From: an uncultured Clostridia bacterium
GTDB taxonomy: Bacteria; Bacillota; Clostridia; Oscillospirales; CAG-272
Assembly (NCBI GenBank): GCA_944393415.1
Contig: CALYAD010000032.1
Span: 2,818 to 66,817 of the forward strand
DNA length: 64,000 nucleotides
Reading direction: 5' to 3'
Both the position numbers and the translations under genes were made by a program. The notes below the pieces were generated by a model, which searched no databases, was not told the DNA's origin, and was given only the letters and a program-made list of their open reading frames with translations. Positions 11,901 to 64,000 of the stretch are shown here, in pieces. Position 1 is the first letter of the stretch. Each line of letters begins with the position of its first letter.

Positions 11901-12549
11901 CTCGAGAATTTCCGACTTTTTAGGAAATGATTTCAGAATTACATATGCAAAGAACGTCGACGCGGAAGGAATGAGCTTCTATATAGGCGATATGATGGCA
12001 TACGAGGCTGACTTCCCGGTATGCGTTGTAGGTATGGGAAGCTCAAGCGGCGGTTCCGAATACGGCGGCGATGTGGAGCTTATCGGCGATGTTACCGACG
12101 GAAATGTAGCCGTAACCGACAGCGACGTGGCTCTCAGACTCCCCGGATATGTATATACTACAGCGTATGTTCTTGATTTCACTCTTACCGCGGACTCCTT
12201 GTCTGACGGCGCACTCCTTGCGGGTAATAAGCTTGACGCTTATGGATTCGAAAACACGCTTGACCTGATAACGGTAAGAGACGGATATATATTCGTCCTT
12301 GACAGAGCGGTATGCAGAACTACGGATGTAAGCGACGGTCTCAGATTTACGATTGTGATGGACGATGCCATGAACCAGGTGGTCGTGTATCTCGACGGCG
12401 TTGAGATTCTGGGCGGCGCTCTCCGCTATCCGGATGGATATTACGCACTTACGGATTCCTTGATACAGGGATTTGTATTTAAGGCAGAAGCAGGCTCCTA
12501 TAATATAAGCGGGCTTGATATGTACACCGGATTTTCCGTAAAAGAATAA
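8932..12549 (+). CDS. Large secreted lipoprotein with LamG/concanavalin-like jelly-roll regions and a central Cys-rich module
   Basis: Signal peptide plus lipobox (MKKVRILAVVLAVLMLPIGLLISC). Repeated 'DxYVNG / LxxY..G' LamG-like segments. A Cys-rich block lies at roughly aa 690-800. Confidence 0.7.
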   Translation: MKKVRILAVVLAVLMLPIGLLISCETNPSDEPSDSSSFTTSSVETQEVSTTPPDNDGTRDGYLMYFSFDEADRGDLRTDLLPYATYFTTAEKEGSLYLIDDKGGVDGSGALLIQRLDAQTDAYVELTTTGMPSLSAQHTVEFDIKVSEGLLGDGINLYSRKSVNNAACSETFVRITEDGVYDGDGALLYEINGEEWLHVAIAVDDENLTYDIYVNGGKLTASTKFTNVSYPAWSEQRLTTYRISTNATTVSDVYAYIDNLCIVAGLDPKEHDEAKDDITYKDTFTQALPAFETTKEDTLALVEQHALTEKNLASTLSLYKVDRNNMAAEVPLMYDYTVESGGTYGGVFGGKVYVNRENSENYIQFVADVNLTVNVTITGSLLTGTYTIGGTAEEPEAWITLTDGALEREYYGVLEGSSINLYSDFNLTQLVGVYDLYESEIPFNNIPLVVDEENYYVYIYIDDYFGTVDFVIHTADSSLDYPDNAEYSYADGVLTITVGENAFTYNYDGTNLTAGEGEDLKTFEVYVDDSAWELGENEEYVLKWQNFATGINQLDFYADVEEGTGANWTNIRFDYYIPTNGVNFTFLVIVDTGSSAEGWSYYSATISHSTAGWYTFDKVITSMGGSRTPDMERFTGKVSITTTGWNNGPQGATDHEERVDGYAIYLSNIELYSGKSIVVQGPDEEHPDCTHEGTLVPSDDFVAPTCTDNGYYPLVCSVCGATKVDIDREMEFPLGHNYEGAETERVEPTCASAGYVYQYCVTCGERAVAEEIPALGHDYITRYDPNTREMRQTCKTCGDQSSLVLSESILTTKEKIEKLGITNAQYFIYDDNKSYSVGSPNVNPSGATDPGFITINPKYAVFAADANGMFKFTRGANLTQDPYIDFDIDNKFQNTHVIEFSLMLGEAVGGKYPKLAGNYITRPSAGMWSANLFTTNENGVLSFNMNTEYTIQLSEERVTHFAFVFTPKDNVFDVYVDGYLRFSGITMTTDSRISDFLGNDFRITYAKNVDAEGMSFYIGDMMAYEADFPVCVVGMGSSSGGSEYGGDVELIGDVTDGNVAVTDSDVALRLPGYVYTTAYVLDFTLTADSLSDGALLAGNKLDAYGFENTLDLITVRDGYIFVLDRAVCRTTDVSDGLRFTIVMDDAMNQVVVYLDGVEILGGALRYPDGYYALTDSLIQGFVFKAEAGSYNISGLDMYTGFSVKE

Positions 12550-12558
12550 TAAAAAAGA

Positions 12559-12589
12559 CGGAGCTTTAAAAAGCTCCGCCTTTTTTTTT
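12559..12589 (+). terminator. Intrinsic terminator
   Basis: CGGAGCTTT-AA-AAAGCTCCG followed by a T9 run. Confidence 0.8.
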
Positions 12590-12632
12590 CAAAAAAATTT
12601 TTCTGGAGGGAAGGATCTGAGTGGGCGTGATA

Positions 12633-12679
12633 GCGTGAAAGTTGAGTCAGATCAAATCAGAGTTCAGGCGGTTTCACGC
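12633..12679 (+). repeat. Long-loop inverted repeat GCGTGAAA-N31-TTTCACGC (member of the dapL-leader repeat family)
   Basis: GATAGCGTGAAAG...CAGGCGGTTTCACGC has the same arms, the same 47-nt span and the same CAGRCGK 3' core as 62864-62910 and 62694-62739. Confidence 0.55.
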
Positions 12680-12747
12680 ATATGTGAGGCTTCGCCGCCG
12701 TCTCCGATTTTTCCGTACTTACTTTTTTCAGAGAAGTTTTTGAAGGT

Positions 12748-12779
12748 TTCAGGGAACTTTTTTCAAAAAGTTCCCTGAA
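12748..12779. repeat. Hairpin repeat, variant copy (TTCAGGGAACTTTTTT/AAAAAGTTCCCTGAA)
   Basis: Preceded by AGAAGTTTTTGAAGGTTTCAG, which is homologous to 36598-36621. Overlaps the 3' end of cca. Confidence 0.5.
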
Positions 12780-14112
12780 TATTTCTCAGATGCAGAGCCT
12801 CGGTTTTCAGTTTTTCAGGGTCATTTTCAATCTCACCGGATATGACCTTATCAAGAAGCGAATTTAAGATTATACCGATCTCCTTTCCTTTCGGAATACC
12901 GAGAGAAATAAGGGTGTCTCCGTTTATCTTCAGCTGTTTTAAAGTAAAACAGTCGGAAGCGGTCTCAATCTTTTTAATGATTTCAAGTATTTCGTCGTAA
13001 ACGGCGATGCGTGAGGCATGCTCGGGCGCCTGAGCATGATTATCGGCGCGCTGCAGCGCGATAAGCTTTTTCAGCGTATCGTTTCCGAGACGGTTTAAAT
13101 AGCGACGCACGTATTTTTCATCCGCAGGGATCTGAGTATCGTGATATTTTATCAGTATCAGAGCTTCGTTTTTTGTTCGCTTGTCGGATTTAAGACGATC
13201 AAATATTGTTTCGGCAATTCTGACACCTTCGGCACAATGTCCGTAAAAATGCCCGATCCCGTCTTTTATGGAAAACGTGTTTGGTTTTCCTATATCATGA
13301 AAGAGGGCCGCAAGTCTAAGAGCAGGCTCTCCCGGTACGCCGGAGACGGTTTTGACGGTATGAGTGTACACATCATAAATATGATGAGGGTTATGCTGAT
13401 GAAAGCCTATGCACGGAGTAAGCTCCGGTATTACCCGGCAAATGACCCCGCTGTGTTCCAGCAAAACTTTTTCGGCGTTTCTGCCGCACAGCAGTTTTTT
13501 TATTTCCGAATATATTCTTTCTGCGGAGAGCGCGTCGAGCATACCGGCGCATTTCAAAGCGGCGGAGGCGGTTTCATATTCAATATTAAAGCCATAAACG
13601 GACGCAAAACGCAGGGCGCGTAGTATTCTCAGTCCGTCCTCTGAAAACCTTAACTCTGGCTTTCCTACCGCGCGTATGATACCGCTTTGCAGGTCTGATA
13701 CACCCCCGGCAATATCAACTATCCCGGATTTGGGGTTAAAGGCAAGCGCGTTAACTGTGAAATCCCGCCGCGCAAGATCACTGCATATGCTGCTTGTGTA
13801 ATTCACGCTGTCCGGATGCCGTCCGTCCGAATAGGTGCTGTCGGTGCGGAAGGTCGTTATTTCAATCGGCTCGTTTTCTATCATAACGGTAACGGTTCCG
13901 TGCTTAATACCGGCGGTAAAAGAAGCGTAGCCTTCAAAAACCTCAAGAGCTTCCTCCGGGTGAGCGGAGGTTGCGATATCACAGTCACCGGGGGGAAGTC
14001 CCAGAATACTGTCGCGTACATATCCGCCGACGATGTAGGCTGAATATCCCGCGGCTTCAAGCCGTGAAATCGCGATTTCAGCGGCTTTGTTCAGTTTAAT
14101 TTCCGGTTTCAT
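12763..14112 (-). CDS. cca: CCA-adding tRNA nucleotidyltransferase with HD domain
   Basis: GGYVRDSILGLPPGDCDIAT (pol-beta nucleotidyltransferase head) and HDIGKP (HD). ATG at 14112 follows GAAAGGAGAG. Confidence 0.85.
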   Translation of the reverse strand: MKPEIKLNKAAEIAISRLEAAGYSAYIVGGYVRDSILGLPPGDCDIATSAHPEEALEVFEGYASFTAGIKHGTVTVMIENEPIEITTFRTDSTYSDGRHPDSVNYTSSICSDLARRDFTVNALAFNPKSGIVDIAGGVSDLQSGIIRAVGKPELRFSEDGLRILRALRFASVYGFNIEYETASAALKCAGMLDALSAERIYSEIKKLLCGRNAEKVLLEHSGVICRVIPELTPCIGFHQHNPHHIYDVYTHTVKTVSGVPGEPALRLAALFHDIGKPNTFSIKDGIGHFYGHCAEGVRIAETIFDRLKSDKRTKNEALILIKYHDTQIPADEKYVRRYLNRLGNDTLKKLIALQRADNHAQAPEHASRIAVYDEILEIIKKIETASDCFTLKQLKINGDTLISLGIPKGKEIGIILNSLLDKVISGEIENDPEKLKTEALHLRNIQGTF

Positions 14113-40925: not shown

Positions 40926-41357
40926 TTACTCTCTTTCCTCATACACTATGGCTTTGTTGGGACAGCCCTTCACGCAGGCAGGTTCGCCGCAGGAATTTTG
41001 CAGGCAAAGCTCGCATTTCTGCATTACGCCGTCCTCTCCGGTAGCTAACGCACCGAACGGACACACCATAATACAGGTCAGACACCCAACGCACCTATCA
41101 CGGTCTATATGGATAACCCCGTCCTTTGTAAAGAGCGCCCCGGCGATACAGCTTTTGACACAAATCGGGTCTGAGCAGTGGCGGCAGGATACCGCGTAGG
41201 AAATTCTGTCGTCGCCTTCTATATGTATTCTCGGGTAAATTTGTTTACCCTTAAGCGCCGCTGCCATATCCTTAAGTCCGGAATTAGCGAAAGCGCAGTT
41301 ATATTCGCATAGGTGACATCCGAGACACCATTTTTCATTGACAAATACCCGTTTCAT
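40926..41357 (-). CDS. 4Fe-4S dicluster ferredoxin-domain protein
   Basis: CLGCHLCEYNC, CRHCSDPICVKSC, CVGCLTCIMVCP and CELC...C cysteine clusters. ATG at 41357 follows GGGGGA. Confidence 0.8.
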   Translation of the reverse strand: MKRVFVNEKWCLGCHLCEYNCAFANSGLKDMAAALKGKQIYPRIHIEGDDRISYAVSCRHCSDPICVKSCIAGALFTKDGVIHIDRDRCVGCLTCIMVCPFGALATGEDGVMQKCELCLQNSCGEPACVKGCPNKAIVYEERE

Positions 41358-41480
41358 ATCAATCCCCCATGCTGCCTTCAGGCAGCTCAAACAGATATAA
41401 AAATTTTTGTGTTTCGCACTTGCGAAAAATTCAAGCGTGAAAACATCTGCGTTCCGACATTATGTATTCAAGCCGGCGTT

Positions 41481-61834: not shown

Positions 61835-62623
61835 ATGCATTTCACTAAAATGCAGGGTCTGGGAAATGATTATTTATATGTATACGGAGAAGCTCCGGAG
61901 GATGTGTCGGAGCTGTCTGTAAAGCTGTCCGACCGTCATACAGGTGCGGGCTCGGACGGTATGATCTTTATCTCTCCTTCGTTGAAAGCCGATTTCCGGA
62001 TGCGTATTTTCAACGCGGACGGGAGCGAGGCCAAAATGTGCGGAAACGGGATACGCTGCGTCGGTAAATATGTTTATGAAAAGGGCTATACGGACAAAAA
62101 GCATTTGAGAATTGAAACAATGTCCGGTATACGCGGACTCGATCTGAAGGTCAGCGGGGGCAGGGTAAGAAGCGTAACGGTAGATATGGGAAAGGCGGAG
62201 CCGTCGGAGGATGCCGCGCTTTTGGTAGATGGGGAAACGGTTATTTGCACACCTGTGTCAGTCGGAAACCCGCACGCGGTTATATTCGTAGAGGATATAG
62301 GAAAGGCTCCGCTGACTGCGCTGGGTCCGAAAATAGAACATAATGACTTTTTTTCCGAAGGGGTAAACGTTGAGTTTGTTCAGGTTCTCGGCGAAGGTGA
62401 GCTTCGTATGAGAGTATGGGAGCGAGGAAGCGGAGTTACCATGGCTTGCGGAACCGGAGCGTGCGCCAGCGCCGCGGCGGCAGTTAAAAAACGTTTCTGC
62501 CGTGCGGGAGAGCCGATTTCGGTTCATCTCGACGGCGGCACGCTGGAAATCGCCGTAGCGTCGGATTATGGTGTGACAATGACGGGTCCGGCGGAATTTG
62601 TTTATGAAGGGGATATAGCATAA
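61835..62623 (+). CDS. dapF: Diaminopimelate epimerase
   Basis: FTKMQGLGNDY, and the two catalytic Cys motifs (MCGNGIRC; ACGTGACAS). ATG at 61835 follows GAAGAAAGG. Confidence 0.9.
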   Translation: MHFTKMQGLGNDYLYVYGEAPEDVSELSVKLSDRHTGAGSDGMIFISPSLKADFRMRIFNADGSEAKMCGNGIRCVGKYVYEKGYTDKKHLRIETMSGIRGLDLKVSGGRVRSVTVDMGKAEPSEDAALLVDGETVICTPVSVGNPHAVIFVEDIGKAPLTALGPKIEHNDFFSEGVNVEFVQVLGEGELRMRVWERGSGVTMACGTGACASAAAAVKKRFCRAGEPISVHLDGGTLEIAVASDYGVTMTGPAEFVYEGDIA

Positions 62624-62659
62624 GCCAGAAAAGTTTTGATCAAGCTTTTTCAAAAGTTT

Positions 62660-63007
62660 GCGGATAGTTAAGGCGGAGCCTTGACTGCAACAGCCGTGAA
62701 AATTAATTTATTCGCGCTGGAATTCAGACGGTTTCACGTATAAATTTCTTGCTATTGCAAAACACGAAAATTTTTTAAAACCGACGGTACGCTTTTTGTT
62801 TTGCGGAGCAAAACACGAACATTTTTCATATATATTTAGCCGCCTTCGGCGGCATGGAGGATAGCGTGAAAGAAATATTACATCGCGTCAAAATGCAGAC
62901 GTTTTCACGCGCAAATTTTCTAAAAAGCTGAACGCTTTTTGTTTTGCAGAGCAAAACACGAAAATTTTTTATGTTTATTTTAGCCGCCTTCGGCGGCATG
63001 GAGGATT
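62660..63007 (+). repeat. Tandem duplication of a ~145-200-nt modular leader element upstream of dapL
   Basis: Unit A is about 62660-62862 and unit B about 62857-63007. Shared blocks: (C/G)CGTGAAA-N31-TTTCACG(T/C); CGCTTTTTGTTTTGC(G/A)GAGCAAAACACGAA(C/A)ATTTTT; and a 27-nt exact TTTAGCCGCCTTCGGCGGCATGGAGGAT. Confidence 0.7.
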
Positions 63008-63010
63008 ATT

Positions 63011-64000
63011 ATGTTAACACCGAATATGCACTACGCGGATCTCAAGGATTCATATCTGTTCGCGGGAATATCGCAAAAGCTTTCGGAATATCTTGAAGCG
63101 CATCCCGGAACGCATTTATATCGCATGGGTATAGGGGACGTGTCGCTTCCGCTATGCGCGGAGGTTATCAAAGCGCTCCACGAGGCTGTAAACGATCAGG
63201 CAAGCAAGGAGAATTTCCATGGTTATATGCCGGAATGCGGAGCTCCTTTCTTACGTGAGAAAATCGCGCTTTTTTACGCGGGACGAGGAGTGAGGCTTTC
63301 ATCGGACGAGGTATTTATATCAAGCGGGGCCAGCGACGAGCTTGGCGATATTCTCGACCTTTTTGACAAAAGCAGCTCTGCGCTTGTGATAGAGCCGGCT
63401 TATCCGGCATATGTGGATGCCAGTGTGATCGCGGGAAGAAGAATAGTGCGGCTTGCCTCGGGTAAGGAAAACGGTTTTCTTCCCGCTCCCGACGACGGTA
63501 TAGAAGCCGATATTCTCTATATCTGCTCTCCGAATAACCCGACGGGAGCGGTTTTTAACAGAGAACAGCTCCAGGCATGGGTCGATTACGCCAACCGTCA
63601 TGGCTCTGTGATCCTGTTTGACGCAGCTTATGAGGCTTTTATAGAAGAGGAAGGTATCCCGCACAGCATTTTCGAGCTGGAAGGTGCGCGCACGTGCGCT
63701 ATTGAAATATGTTCGCTTTCCAAAACGGCGGGCTTTACGGGTACGAGGCTCGGTTACACTGTGATTCCGAAAGAGCTTGAGAGATGCGGCATGAATTTCA
63801 ATTCAATGTGGGTGAGAAACCGTACAACTAAGACAAACGGCGTTTCTTACATAATCCAAAAGGGCGGAGCGGCCGTATTCACACCGCAGGGACAGAGGCA
63901 GATACGTGAAAATATTCAGGTTTATAAAAAGAACGCGAAAATCTTGATGGAGGCGCTCGACAGTATAGGTATCTGGTATACCGGAGGCAAAAACGCGCCG
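63011..64000 (+). CDS. dapL: LL-diaminopimelate aminotransferase (5' part; runs off the window)
   Basis: Manual translation from ATG 63011: MLTPNMHYADLKDSYLFAGISQKL...ICSPNNPTG...SLSKTAGFTGTRLGY (PLP-lysine region). The frame is open to the window end and is not in the ORF track. Confidence 0.85.
   Translation, partial: MLTPNMHYADLKDSYLFAGISQKLSEYLEAHPGTHLYRMGIGDVSLPLCAEVIKALHEAVNDQASKENFHGYMPECGAPFLREKIALFYAGRGVRLSSDEVFISSGASDELGDILDLFDKSSSALVIEPAYPAYVDASVIAGRRIVRLASGKENGFLPAPDDGIEADILYICSPNNPTGAVFNREQLQAWVDYANRHGSVILFDAAYEAFIEEEGIPHSIFELEGARTCAIEICSLSKTAGFTGTRLGYTVIPKELERCGMNFNSMWVRNRTTKTNGVSYIIQKGGAAVFTPQGQRQIRENIQVYKKNAKILMEALDSIGIWYTGGKNAP

What the first reader, a model, noticed from the sequence alone, without database searches (positions are those of the whole stretch)
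62660..63010. Tandemly duplicated modular leader upstream of dapL, belonging to a dispersed repeat family
The 387-nt dapF-dapL spacer is not an L-box. It consists of two copies of one module.

**Module structure.**
1. A long-loop inverted repeat (G/C)CGUGAAA-N31-UUUCACG(C/U) with a conserved CAGRCGK just 5' of the distal arm.
2. A terminator-like hairpin UGUUUUGC-RGA-GCAAAACA followed by a U-run.
3. A GCCGCC-UUCG-GGCGGC tetraloop hairpin fused to AUGGAGGAU.

**Role at dapL.** In the second copy that last block supplies the dapL SD and start (GGAGGATTATTATG).

**Other copies.**
- Part (1) recurs at 12633-12679 with the same 47-nt span but a different interior.
- Parts (1, distal arm) through (3) recur inside the GOGAT operon (see the separate finding).

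**Interpretation.** Conserved arms with variable interiors, and reuse as a ready-made translation start, suggest either a mobile cis-regulatory cassette or a processing/stability element. A simple terminator is less likely.
Basis: seen in the sequence. Interest (0 to 1): 0.6.

Follow-up and report, generated by a model that had tools for sequence, protein, structure and literature searches.

The report
Miniature IS110 elements before dapL
The "leader" in front of dapL is two side-by-side copies of a small transposase-less mobile element, related to IS110-type insertion sequences, that has landed between the ribosome-binding site and start codon of over 100 genes in this gut bacterium and supplies a replacement ribosome-binding site; it is not a lysine-sensing switch.

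Summary
The 387-nt dapF-dapL spacer holds a 69-nt unrelated small repeat followed by two tandem, non-identical units (62692-62862 and 62863-63010) of a ~150-nt structured repeat. The second unit supplies dapL's Shine-Dalgarno (SD) sequence.

- **Abundance.** The family has at least 234 copies at 174 loci in this 2.33-Mb genome. Copies are co-oriented with the downstream gene and end 5-7 nt before its start codon.
- **Insertion.** Three congeners have dapF and dapL overlapping (ATGA), so the spacer is an insertion. Another strain of the same species has four units.
- **Spread.** A covariance model finds the family in 40 of 201 genomes (32 of 97 genera) of the same GTDB family.
- **Structure.** Four hairpins covary well; a closing helix has weaker support.
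- **Origin.** Both termini match a clade of ~1.64-kb IS110-family insertion sequences. These insert at the same kind of site in the same orientation. A loop in their non-coding region covaries with their right junction, as expected of a guide RNA.

Best reading: non-autonomous miniature IS110 derivatives (selfish DNA), not a dapL-specific regulator. No matching transposase was found in this genus.

The parts
61835..62623 (+). dapF (diaminopimelate epimerase), stop TAA at 62621-62623. Its last residues (..EGDIA*) differ from congeners (..EGEAEI*) because the insertion begins inside its 3' end.
   Evidence: PF01678 on the identical product; for the congener C-termini.
62606..62614 (+). GAAGGGGAT: remnant of the ancestral dapL SD, which lay inside the dapF 3' end. 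It is now about 400 nt upstream of the dapL ATG.
   Evidence: Congeners read GAAGGGGAGGCAGAGATATGA or GTGAGGTGGAGATATGA, with the dapF stop overlapping the dapL ATG.
62624..62692 (+). 69-nt segment that is not part of the family. It holds a second small two-hairpin repeat (about 62630-62690) with four other copies in the genome.
62692..62862 (+). Unit 1 (variant). Left end AGCCGTGAAAA; distal arm TTTCACG at 62732-62738; an internal partial duplication (GCAAAACACGAAAATTTTTT at 62757 and again at 62808); hairpin TGTTTTGCGGAGCAAAACA at 62797-62815; GC hairpin at 62839-62853; SD GGAGGAT at 62856-62862.
   Evidence: repeat families D1-D4 and inverted pair I2; 81 bits, E 2e-18.
62863..63010 (+). Unit 2 (canonical). 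Helix A 62864-62871 with 62903-62910; closing helix P 62913-62920 with 62960-62967; hairpin B1 62922-62928 with 62934-62940; hairpin B2 62941-62947 with 62951-62957; GC hairpin D 62983-62988 with 62992-62997; replacement SD GGAGG at 63000-63004, 6 nt before the dapL ATG.
   Evidence: 163 bits; covariation; fold.
62866..62931 (+). Short ORF opened at the unit 1/unit 2 junction (unit 1 SD + AGC + GTG). It has 21 codons and its stop lies in the B1 loop. Its length varies between copies, so it is not a conserved peptide.
   Evidence: Read from the sequence; junction ORF lengths of 3 to 38 codons.
63011..64000 (+). dapL (LL-diaminopimelate aminotransferase), which runs off the window. It now starts directly after unit 2.
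   Evidence: PF00155.
41356..41474 (-). 5'-truncated copy of the same element between two co-directional genes of the GOGAT operon. It supplies GGGGGATTGAT|ATG.
   Evidence: 67 bits, E 7e-15.
12632..12679 (+). Solo copy of module A (AGCGTGAAAG-N30-TTTCACGC). It belongs to a different composite repeat and is not next to a start codon.
   Evidence: 36 bits, E 5e-7.

Best explanation
The dapF-dapL spacer is inserted selfish DNA. It holds two tandem copies of a ~150-nt, transposase-less, highly structured miniature element derived from a clade of IS110-family (DEDD recombinase, guide-RNA-directed) insertion sequences.

**How the parent elements behave.** These elements insert, in one orientation, between a gene's SD sequence and its start codon. 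The transposase strand is antisense to the target gene. The end that faces the start codon carries a GC hairpin followed by (C/A)ATGGAGG(A)TTA. This replaces the displaced SD at the normal 5-7 nt spacing, so the target gene stays translatable.

**Why arrays form.** Each inserted copy recreates an SD-plus-spacer target at its own right end. Further copies can therefore stack into arrays: two units here, four in another strain.

**What happened at this locus.** The insertion split an ancestrally overlapping, translationally coupled dapF/dapL pair and rewrote the last codons of dapF.

**Shown here.**
- The repeat family, its orientation and its position.
- Empty orthologous sites.
- The replacement SD.
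- Covarying helices.
- Termini shared with full-length IS110 elements.
- A guide-like loop in those elements that covaries with their junction.

**Inferred.**
- The miniatures were moved in trans by such a recombinase plus guide RNA.
- dapL is translated from the element's SD on a read-through dapF-dapL transcript.
- Any effect on dapL expression is a by-product, not lysine control.
For: **Family and position.**
- 234 nhmmer hits in 174 arrays (128 single, 32 double, 14 triple), 27.9 kb in all; 10 contig ends stop inside the repeat.
- 111 of 132 arrays that end in module D abut an ORF of at least 60 aa. SD-to-start spacing is 5-7 nt in 88 of the 93 measured.
- 59% of left flanks carry an SD-like tetramer within 14 nt, against 18% at random positions. 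Positions -8 to -3 are purine-rich and -2/-1 are mostly (T/A)(T/C).

**Insertion.**
- dapF and dapL overlap as ATGA in congeners G001, G002 and G010.
- Sites occupied in G009, G005, G012 and G006 are empty in this genome.
- A strain with an identical DapF has four units.

**Structure.**
- On a cross-genus alignment, helices A, B1, B2 and D are 93-97% paired, with 4-7 pairs each changed on both sides.
- No shuffle of 500 reaches the observed values, and slid controls pair at only 36-51%.

**IS110 link.**
- A 1.65-kb element in a genome of the same GTDB family (L160) begins AGCGTGAAAG right after an SD-like AGGA. It ends ...TATTTGTGCTGACGCATTGCGGCAGAATGGAAATTAGTAT and encodes a 414-aa IS110 transposase on the opposite strand.
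- 33 full-length relatives across Bacillota share AGCGTGAAA at the left end after a native SD. They share TTTTTCATTACTATTTGTGCCGCC..GGCGGAATGGAGGTTAnnATG at the right end.
- The HMM built only from this genome's miniatures hits the last 45-90 nt of 23 of the 33, always terminal and in the same orientation, with E down to 9e-8.
- 36 of 43 aligned bases are identical.
- In those elements an internal non-coding loop matches the right junction by 6 nt or more in 29 of 33 copies, across 21 different junction hexamers. The mean longest match is 6.55 against 4.49 in permutations (z = 12).
- Genome G225 has both a transposase of this type (77% identical to L160's) and at least 10 miniatures.

**Precedent.** IS110-family elements are known to be guide-RNA directed and site-specific, and an IS110-associated MITE-like element (MITEPpu9) is described (PMC12288879, PMC11187229).
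Against: - No transposase of the matching clade is present in any of the 13 assembled genomes of the genus.
- The only IS110 fragment in this genome (contig C15) is 33% identical to that clade, and its relatives' flanks do not match the repeat.
- Sequence homology to the full-length elements is limited to about 10-20 nt at the left end and 45-90 nt at the right end. The middle of the miniature (most of module A, helix P, hairpin B1) has no clear counterpart. A covariance-model alignment of module A to an internal hairpin of the full element is weak (E 2e-4 to 2e-3).
- The miniatures show no loop matched to their own junctions. Their strong structural conservation is therefore not explained by a self-encoded guide.
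- The right-end similarity includes the SD itself, which could partly be convergence.
- Movement was not observed directly. The 2-versus-4-unit difference could come from recombination or from MAG assembly of repeats.
Confidence: 0.8

Rival explanations
1. The element is, or has become, a host-useful portable expression module. It would carry a 5'-UTR cassette with its own promoter and/or terminator, an mRNA-stabilising hairpin and an SD, in the manner of Neisseria REP2 or the Borrelia IR sequences. On this reading it sets the expression of dapL and about 100 other genes.
For: - It always faces a start codon and supplies the SD at optimal spacing.
- The helices are kept by compensatory change in many genera, which is more constraint than a decaying relic needs.
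- Hairpin B1 is flanked by an A-run and a T-run, like a bidirectional terminator.
- REP2 is a described precedent for a repeat carrying a promoter, an RBS and an ATG (PMC3184786).
Against: - The consensus scan finds no sigma-70-like promoter in the spacer, and its single terminator-like call does not exceed the number expected in shuffles.
- About 72% of copies lie between co-directional genes, where read-through would suffice.
- Presence is patchy among congeners and sites are not orthologous, which is typical of selfish spread.
- The termini are those of an insertion sequence.
Confidence: 0.1
2. It is an independent REP/BOX/MIRU-like host repeat with no descent from an insertion sequence. 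It would spread by recombination or an unknown host process, and its resemblance to IS110 ends would be convergence imposed by the shared need for an SD.
For: - No cognate transposase is present in the genus.
- The architecture is modular and mosaic, with optional modules and a module A shared with another repeat.
- Copy number varies between strains, as with MIRU.
Against: - The similarity extends beyond the SD. It includes TTTTTCAT-N3-TATTTG, the GC hairpin, and the 9-10-nt left terminus AGCGTGAAA in the correct position and orientation in 30 or more full-length elements.
- The target site and orientation rule are the same.
- No Y1/RAYT or TnpB gene is present.
Confidence: 0.07
3. It is a dapL-specific (lysine or diaminopimelate-responsive) leader, that is, an attenuator or riboswitch.
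For: Its position in front of a lysine-pathway gene, a hairpin-rich sequence, and a short ORF at the unit junction.
Against: - No Rfam match, including the lysine riboswitch.
- The same sequence precedes more than 100 unrelated genes.
- Congeners have no spacer at all here.
- The junction ORF varies from 3 to 38 codons.
Confidence: 0.01

Closest known systems
IS900 / IS901 / IS902 / IS1110 group of IS110-family insertion sequences (Mycobacterium avium complex)
   Same: From my own knowledge of the IS900 literature (not retrieved here), these elements insert in one orientation between the ribosome-binding site and the start codon of target genes. They have no terminal inverted repeats, and the transposase is antisense to the target gene. 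The full-length Bacillota elements found here behave the same way.
   Different: - The host phylum and the sequences differ.
- The element at dapL has no transposase.
- It is about 150 nt long rather than about 1.4 kb.
- It is present at about 170 loci per genome.
- It carries a conserved replacement SD preceded by a GC hairpin.
Bridge-RNA / seekRNA-guided IS110 and IS1111 elements (IS621, ISEc11, ISEc21; PMC11208160, PMC11187229)
   Same: The full-length relatives have a DEDD_Tnp_IS110 transposase (PF01548) and a ~270-nt non-coding region upstream of it. An internal loop of that region covaries with the element's junction (z = 12). This is how guide loops were recognised in those papers.
   Different: - Which loop is the target guide and which the donor guide was not worked out here.
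- The miniature at dapL shows no loop matched to its own junction, so it is probably guide-less as well as transposase-less.
MITEPpu9, the MITE-like element associated with ISPpu9 (IS110 family, Pseudomonas putida; PMC12288879)
   Same: A short non-autonomous element that shares its end regions with an IS110-family insertion sequence and is thought to hitch-hike on that element's machinery.
   Different: - MITEPpu9 carries an sRNA gene, has 8 copies and sits in REP sequences.
- The family here has hundreds of copies, targets SD-start spacers and rebuilds the ribosome-binding site.
Neisseria REP2 (CREN) and Borrelia plasmid IR repeats (PMC3184786)
   Same: Repeats of about 120-150 bp without terminal inverted repeats. 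They have internal stem-loops, lie immediately upstream of ORFs and bring a ribosome-binding site.
   Different: - REP2 also carries a promoter and the ATG and has about 26 copies.
- No promoter was detectable here, and the ATG belongs to the target gene.
- No link to an insertion sequence is described for REP2.
MIRU (mycobacterial interspersed repetitive units) and pneumococcal BOX elements
   Same: Intergenic and often intra-operon; modular or tandem units whose number varies between strains (2 versus 4 units at dapL).
   Different: - MIRU units carry short ORFs that couple translation of the flanking genes. The junction ORFs here are not conserved in length.
- There is no sequence relation to either family.
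- BOX and MIRU have no known parent insertion sequence.

Membership tests
Non-autonomous (miniature) derivative of an IS110-family insertion sequence | Both termini shared with an autonomous element that encodes a DEDD (IS110-type) transposase | tested here: met
   - The left terminus AGCGTGAAA is present in about 30 of 33 full-length elements.
- The right 45-90 nt are hit by the miniature HMM in 23 of 33, always terminal, with E down to 9e-8; 36 of 43 aligned bases are identical.
- The autonomous elements come from other genomes, not from this genus.
Non-autonomous (miniature) derivative of an IS110-family insertion sequence | No terminal inverted repeats and no long target-site duplication | tested here: met
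   - The ends AGCGTGAAAG... and ...CATGGAGGATTA are not inverted copies of each other.
- Left flank and right end are not identical in individual insertions.
- Only a (T/A)T before an A recurs at both junctions, which is compatible with a 2-nt crossover core.
Non-autonomous (miniature) derivative of an IS110-family insertion sequence | Site-specific and orientation-specific insertion, the same as that of the parent element | tested here: met
   The miniatures and the full-length elements both have a native SD-like run immediately to the left and a start codon 4-7 nt after GGAG on the right. In the full-length elements the transposase is antisense to the target gene.
Non-autonomous (miniature) derivative of an IS110-family insertion sequence | A cognate recombinase in the same genome, and mobilisation in trans | tested here: not met
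   - No transposase of the matching clade is present in the 13 genomes of the genus.
- Co-occurrence was seen only in G225.
- MAGs often lose multicopy insertion sequences, and mobilisation itself cannot be tested with these tools.
Bridge-RNA/seekRNA-guided IS110 elements (applies to the full-length relatives) | A non-coding-region loop whose sequence covaries with the element's target or donor junction | tested here: met
   - 29 of 33 elements have a match of 6 nt or more between an internal loop (CACTG-guide-ACTG) and the right junction, across 21 junction variants.
- Mean longest match 6.55 against 4.49 in permutations, z = 12.
- No such match exists in the miniatures (z = -1.5).
Lysine riboswitch (L-box, Rfam) | A match to the covariance model upstream of a lysine-pathway gene | tested here: not met
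   No Rfam family reaches its gathering score in the window, and there is no lysine riboswitch hit at E <= 10 in 62400-63200.
REP/REPIN mobilised by a RAYT, or an IS200/IS605-derived element | A Y1 (HUH) transposase or TnpB in the genome | tested here: not met
   PF01797 and PF07282 are absent from the 96.7%-complete assembly, and the control genomes gave hits.
MIRU-type intercistronic repeat | A conserved short ORF in each unit that overlaps the stop and start codons of the flanking genes | tested here: not met
   ORFs that open at unit junctions have 3 to 38 codons and stop at varying places. Copy-number variation between strains is present.

The most novel reading that the evidence does not exclude
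The miniature may not be a passive relic. Compensatory changes maintain its helices across at least a dozen genera, although it lacks both a transposase and a junction-matched guide. This points to selection on a folded RNA (or single-stranded DNA).

Two forms of this reading remain open:
- It is a shortened scaffold of the IS110 guide-RNA region that still binds the recombinase, acting as a hitch-hiker, helper or decoy.
- It is a domesticated 5'-UTR module that places about 5% of the genes of these gut bacteria, dapL included, under one shared translational or RNA-stability control.
Probability: 0.15. Interest if true: 0.8.

Novelty: new variant of a known kind. Interest (0 to 1): 0.55.

Why it matters
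**Annotation.** These units look like riboswitches or attenuators: long, conserved, structured leaders in front of metabolic genes. They will mislead RNA-motif hunters in gut Clostridia, and here one mimics a lysine-pathway leader.

**Biology.**
- A clade of guide-RNA-directed IS110 elements and their miniatures home to the few nucleotides between the SD and the start codon, and they repair the damage by bringing their own SD.
- In this genome they have rewritten the translation-initiation region of roughly one gene in twenty.
- They break ancestral translational coupling, as at dapF/dapL.
- They also form strain-variable arrays.

**Possible uses.** This gives a natural set of many target and junction variants for studying how such recombinases read their targets. 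It could also serve as a strain-typing marker. I found no description of this clade or its miniatures in the searched literature.

Tried and rejected
- **Rfam.** Searches at gathering score and at E <= 10 found nothing relevant.
- **Exact 27-mer of module D in 185,579 species genomes.** No hits. The family is too diverged for exact words.
- **HUH/Y1 transposase and TnpB as mobilisers.** Absent.
- **The resident IS110 fragment on contig C15 as parent.**
  - Its relatives' flanks show no similarity to the repeat.
  - It is only 33% identical to the matching clade.
- **A full-length element in this genome, sought as an A...D pair 1-6 kb apart.** None found.
- **Target-site duplication and terminal inverted repeats.** Not present.
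- **An anti-SD pairing of AAUUUUCU with GGAGGAUU, suggested by the minimum-free-energy fold.**
  - It is mostly G-U pairs and poorly supported.
  - That segment instead pairs with GAAAAUUU.
- **G-U versus A-C asymmetry, to decide which strand folds.**
  - The result was 31 against 11 in module D within this genome.
  - There is no consistent bias across genera, so the test is inconclusive.
- **Copy-specific complementarity between the module A loop and each copy's own flanks, as a test for a self-encoded guide.** No signal.
- **Sigma-70 promoter and terminator scan of the spacer.** Nothing above shuffles.
  - The genome search does not accept DNA alignments, so a covariance model was built instead.

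Full report
**1. What is in the sequence**

dapF ends at 62623 and dapL starts at 63011. The 387-nt spacer has three parts.
- **62624-62692:** 69 nt that are not part of the family. They contain another small two-hairpin repeat with four further copies in the genome.
- **62692-62862:** unit 1.
- **62863-63010:** unit 2.

The repeat finder and a covariance model confirm the two units (81 and 163 bits).

They are not fresh duplicates of each other. The last 28 nt are identical, the middle is 90% identical and the first module only 75%. Unit 1 also has an internal partial duplication.

Unit 2 ends ...GCCGCCTTCGGCGGCATGGAGGATTATT|ATG, so dapL's SD (GGAGG, 63000-63004) belongs to the element.

No Rfam family matches, including the lysine riboswitch.

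**2. The family in this genome**

The window is part of a 2.33-Mb, 76-contig MAG of an uncultured gut Clostridia bacterium. Its relatives are labelled Clostridia, Eubacteriales or Oscillospiraceae.

- An iterated nhmmer search finds 234 copies in 174 arrays (128 single, 32 double, 14 triple). They total 27.9 kb (1.2% of the genome), and ten contig ends break inside a copy.
- Of 132 arrays that end with the hairpin+SD module, 111 abut an ORF of at least 60 aa. The start is ATG in 102 of these, and SD-to-start spacing is 5-7 nt in 88 of the 93 measured.
- By crude ORF calls, the upstream gene is co-directional in about 72% of arrays, so many copies lie inside operons.
- The first unit of an array is immediately preceded by a purine-rich, SD-like run followed by (T/A)(T/C). 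59% of left flanks have an SD tetramer within 14 nt, against 18% at random positions.
- The native SD therefore stays on the left, the element lies between it and the start codon, and the element's own SD takes over.
The solo copy belongs to a different composite repeat.

**3. It is an insertion**

- Three congeners that have dapL (68-78% identical) have dapF and dapL overlapping by ATGA, with the dapL SD inside the end of dapF.
- In this genome the insertion starts right after that SD (GAAGGGGA|T...). It changes the last residues of DapF (..EGDIA* instead of ..EGEAEI*).
- Sites occupied in four congeners are empty in this genome.
- Another assembly of the same species, with an identical DapF, has four units in this spacer. 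Two further assemblies break inside it.

**4. Distribution and structure**

- A BLAST-type search finds the family in 7-8 of the 13 genomes of the genus and hardly outside it.
- A covariance model built from 33 copies finds it in 40 of 201 genomes and 32 of 97 genera of the same GTDB family.
- On a cross-genus alignment the following helices are 93-97% paired, each with 4-7 pairs changed on both sides:
  - helix A (GCGUGAAA/UUUCACGC around about 31 nt);
  - hairpin B1 (an A-run, a GC stem, then a U-run);
  - hairpin B2;
  - the GC hairpin D.
- A further helix P (AAAUUUUC/GAAAAUUU) encloses B1 and B2. Other genera read, for example, AAATCCTCG/CGAGGATTT or AAACTTCACC/GGTGAAGTTT. It is 72% paired in an alignment that did not model it, and it has five double-change pairs.
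- Shuffled and slid controls are far lower.
- Which strand folds could not be settled.

**5. What it is**

Earlier notes of this scan on other genomes suggested IS110-type parents for similar repeats. I treated that as a lead and tested it for this family.

- **Resident fragment.** The IS110 fragment in this genome (contig C15) and its relatives do not match the repeat.
- **A full-length match.** Among IS110 transposase loci from 151 genomes of the GTDB family, one (L160) is a 1.65-kb element.
  - It starts AGCGTGAAAG immediately after ...TAACTAGGATTTAT (an SD-like AGGA).
  - It ends ...TTTCATTCCTATTTGTGCTGACGCATTGCGGCAGAATGGAAATTAGTAT at the contig end.
  - It encodes a 414-aa transposase on the opposite strand.
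- **Relatives of that transposase.** 33 were recovered full-length from many Bacillota, and all show the same plan.
  - A native SD sits on the left (for example ttggaggtgttt|AGCGTGAAAAAT).
  - The right end is TTTTTCATTACTATTTGTGCCGCC-loop-GGCGGAATGGAGGTTAnn|ATG.
- **End homology.** The HMM made only from this genome's miniatures hits the terminal 45-90 nt of 23 of these 33 elements. The hits are always at the very end and in the same orientation, with E down to 9e-8. 36 of 43 aligned bases are identical.
- **Guide-like loop.**
  - In the full-length elements an internal loop of the non-coding region (CACTG-GGTTAAT-AT-ACTG) repeats the right-junction sequence.
  - It changes with that junction. 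There are 21 different junction hexamers, and the match is 6 nt or more in 29 of 33 elements.
  - The mean longest match is 6.55 against 4.49 in permutations (z = 12).
  - This is the signature by which guide (bridge/seek) RNAs of IS110 elements are recognised (PMC11208160, PMC11187229, PMC12288879).
- **The miniatures lack it.** They have no such matched loop.

The units before dapL are therefore best read as non-autonomous miniatures of this IS110 clade. Arrays arise because each copy's right end recreates an SD-spacer target.

**6. Limits**

- No transposase of the matching clade is present in the 13 genomes of the genus. One genome elsewhere in the family (G225) has both a transposase and at least 10 miniatures.
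- The middle of the miniature has no clear counterpart in the full-length elements. A covariance-model alignment of module A to an internal hairpin of the non-coding region is weak.
- Why a guide-less, transposase-less element keeps its helices by compensatory change is unexplained. This is the basis of the novel reading.
- No promoter or terminator stands out by consensus.
The effect on dapL expression is therefore inference only: translation from the element's SD on a read-through transcript, with the former dapF-dapL coupling lost.

**7. Comparison and verdict**

- The closest known behaviour is that of IS900-type IS110 elements, which insert between the ribosome-binding site and the start codon (my own knowledge; not retrieved).
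- The closest known miniature is MITEPpu9 (PMC12288879).
- The closest functional look-alikes are Neisseria REP2 and the Borrelia IR repeats (PMC3184786) and MIRU.
- None of the searched papers describes this Bacillota clade or its high-copy miniatures.
A dapL-specific or lysine-related role is not supported.

Noticed in passing
window 62630-62690: A second small repeat lies between the dapF stop and unit 1. It reads TTTTGATCAAnCTTTTTCAAAAGTTTGCGGATnGTTAAGGCGGAGCCTTAAC and forms two hairpins. Four more copies exist in the genome (C27:16842, C26:18785, C54:61209(-), C38:7122(-)). In C38 it again lies just upstream of a unit of the main family.
   Followed up: partly
window 12480-12840 and about 9 other loci (e.g. 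C17:29933, C19:2969, C10:29204): Solo copies of module A (AGCGTGAAAGTTAnnTnAGATCAAGTCAG..TTTCACGC) sit inside a different composite repeat. Its outer ~40-nt segments (ttctggaaggaatatataatnggatttgagnaagcgggtt) recur in inverted orientation, and the loci are mostly between convergent genes. It may be a separate MITE-like family that shares one module.
   Followed up: partly
genome contig C15:49921-50561 (outside the window): A truncated IS110-family transposase (C-terminal 219 aa, PF02371) lies at a contig end. It is only 33% identical to the clade whose ends match the repeat.
   Followed up: yes
window 62866-62931 and other unit junctions: At tandem junctions the upstream unit's SD is followed by AGC and then GTG. 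This opens short ORFs of 3-38 codons, whose stop often lies in the B1 loop. Ribosomes loading on displaced or internal SDs would therefore translate a few codons and then stop.
   Followed up: partly
full-length IS110 loci L169-L215 (other genomes): The non-coding region holds a second conserved hairpin. Its loop contains an SD-like or anti-SD-like run (for example CTACGACTCCTCCTACCGTGCTTTGTAG). It is a candidate target-binding loop for a ribosome-binding-site target, and the miniatures lack it.
   Followed up: no
window 62600-62623: The insertion rewrote the last codons of dapF (..EGDIA* against ..EGEAEI* or ..ECEVEI* in congeners). This happened because the ancestral dapL SD and ATG lay inside the end of dapF.
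   Followed up: yes
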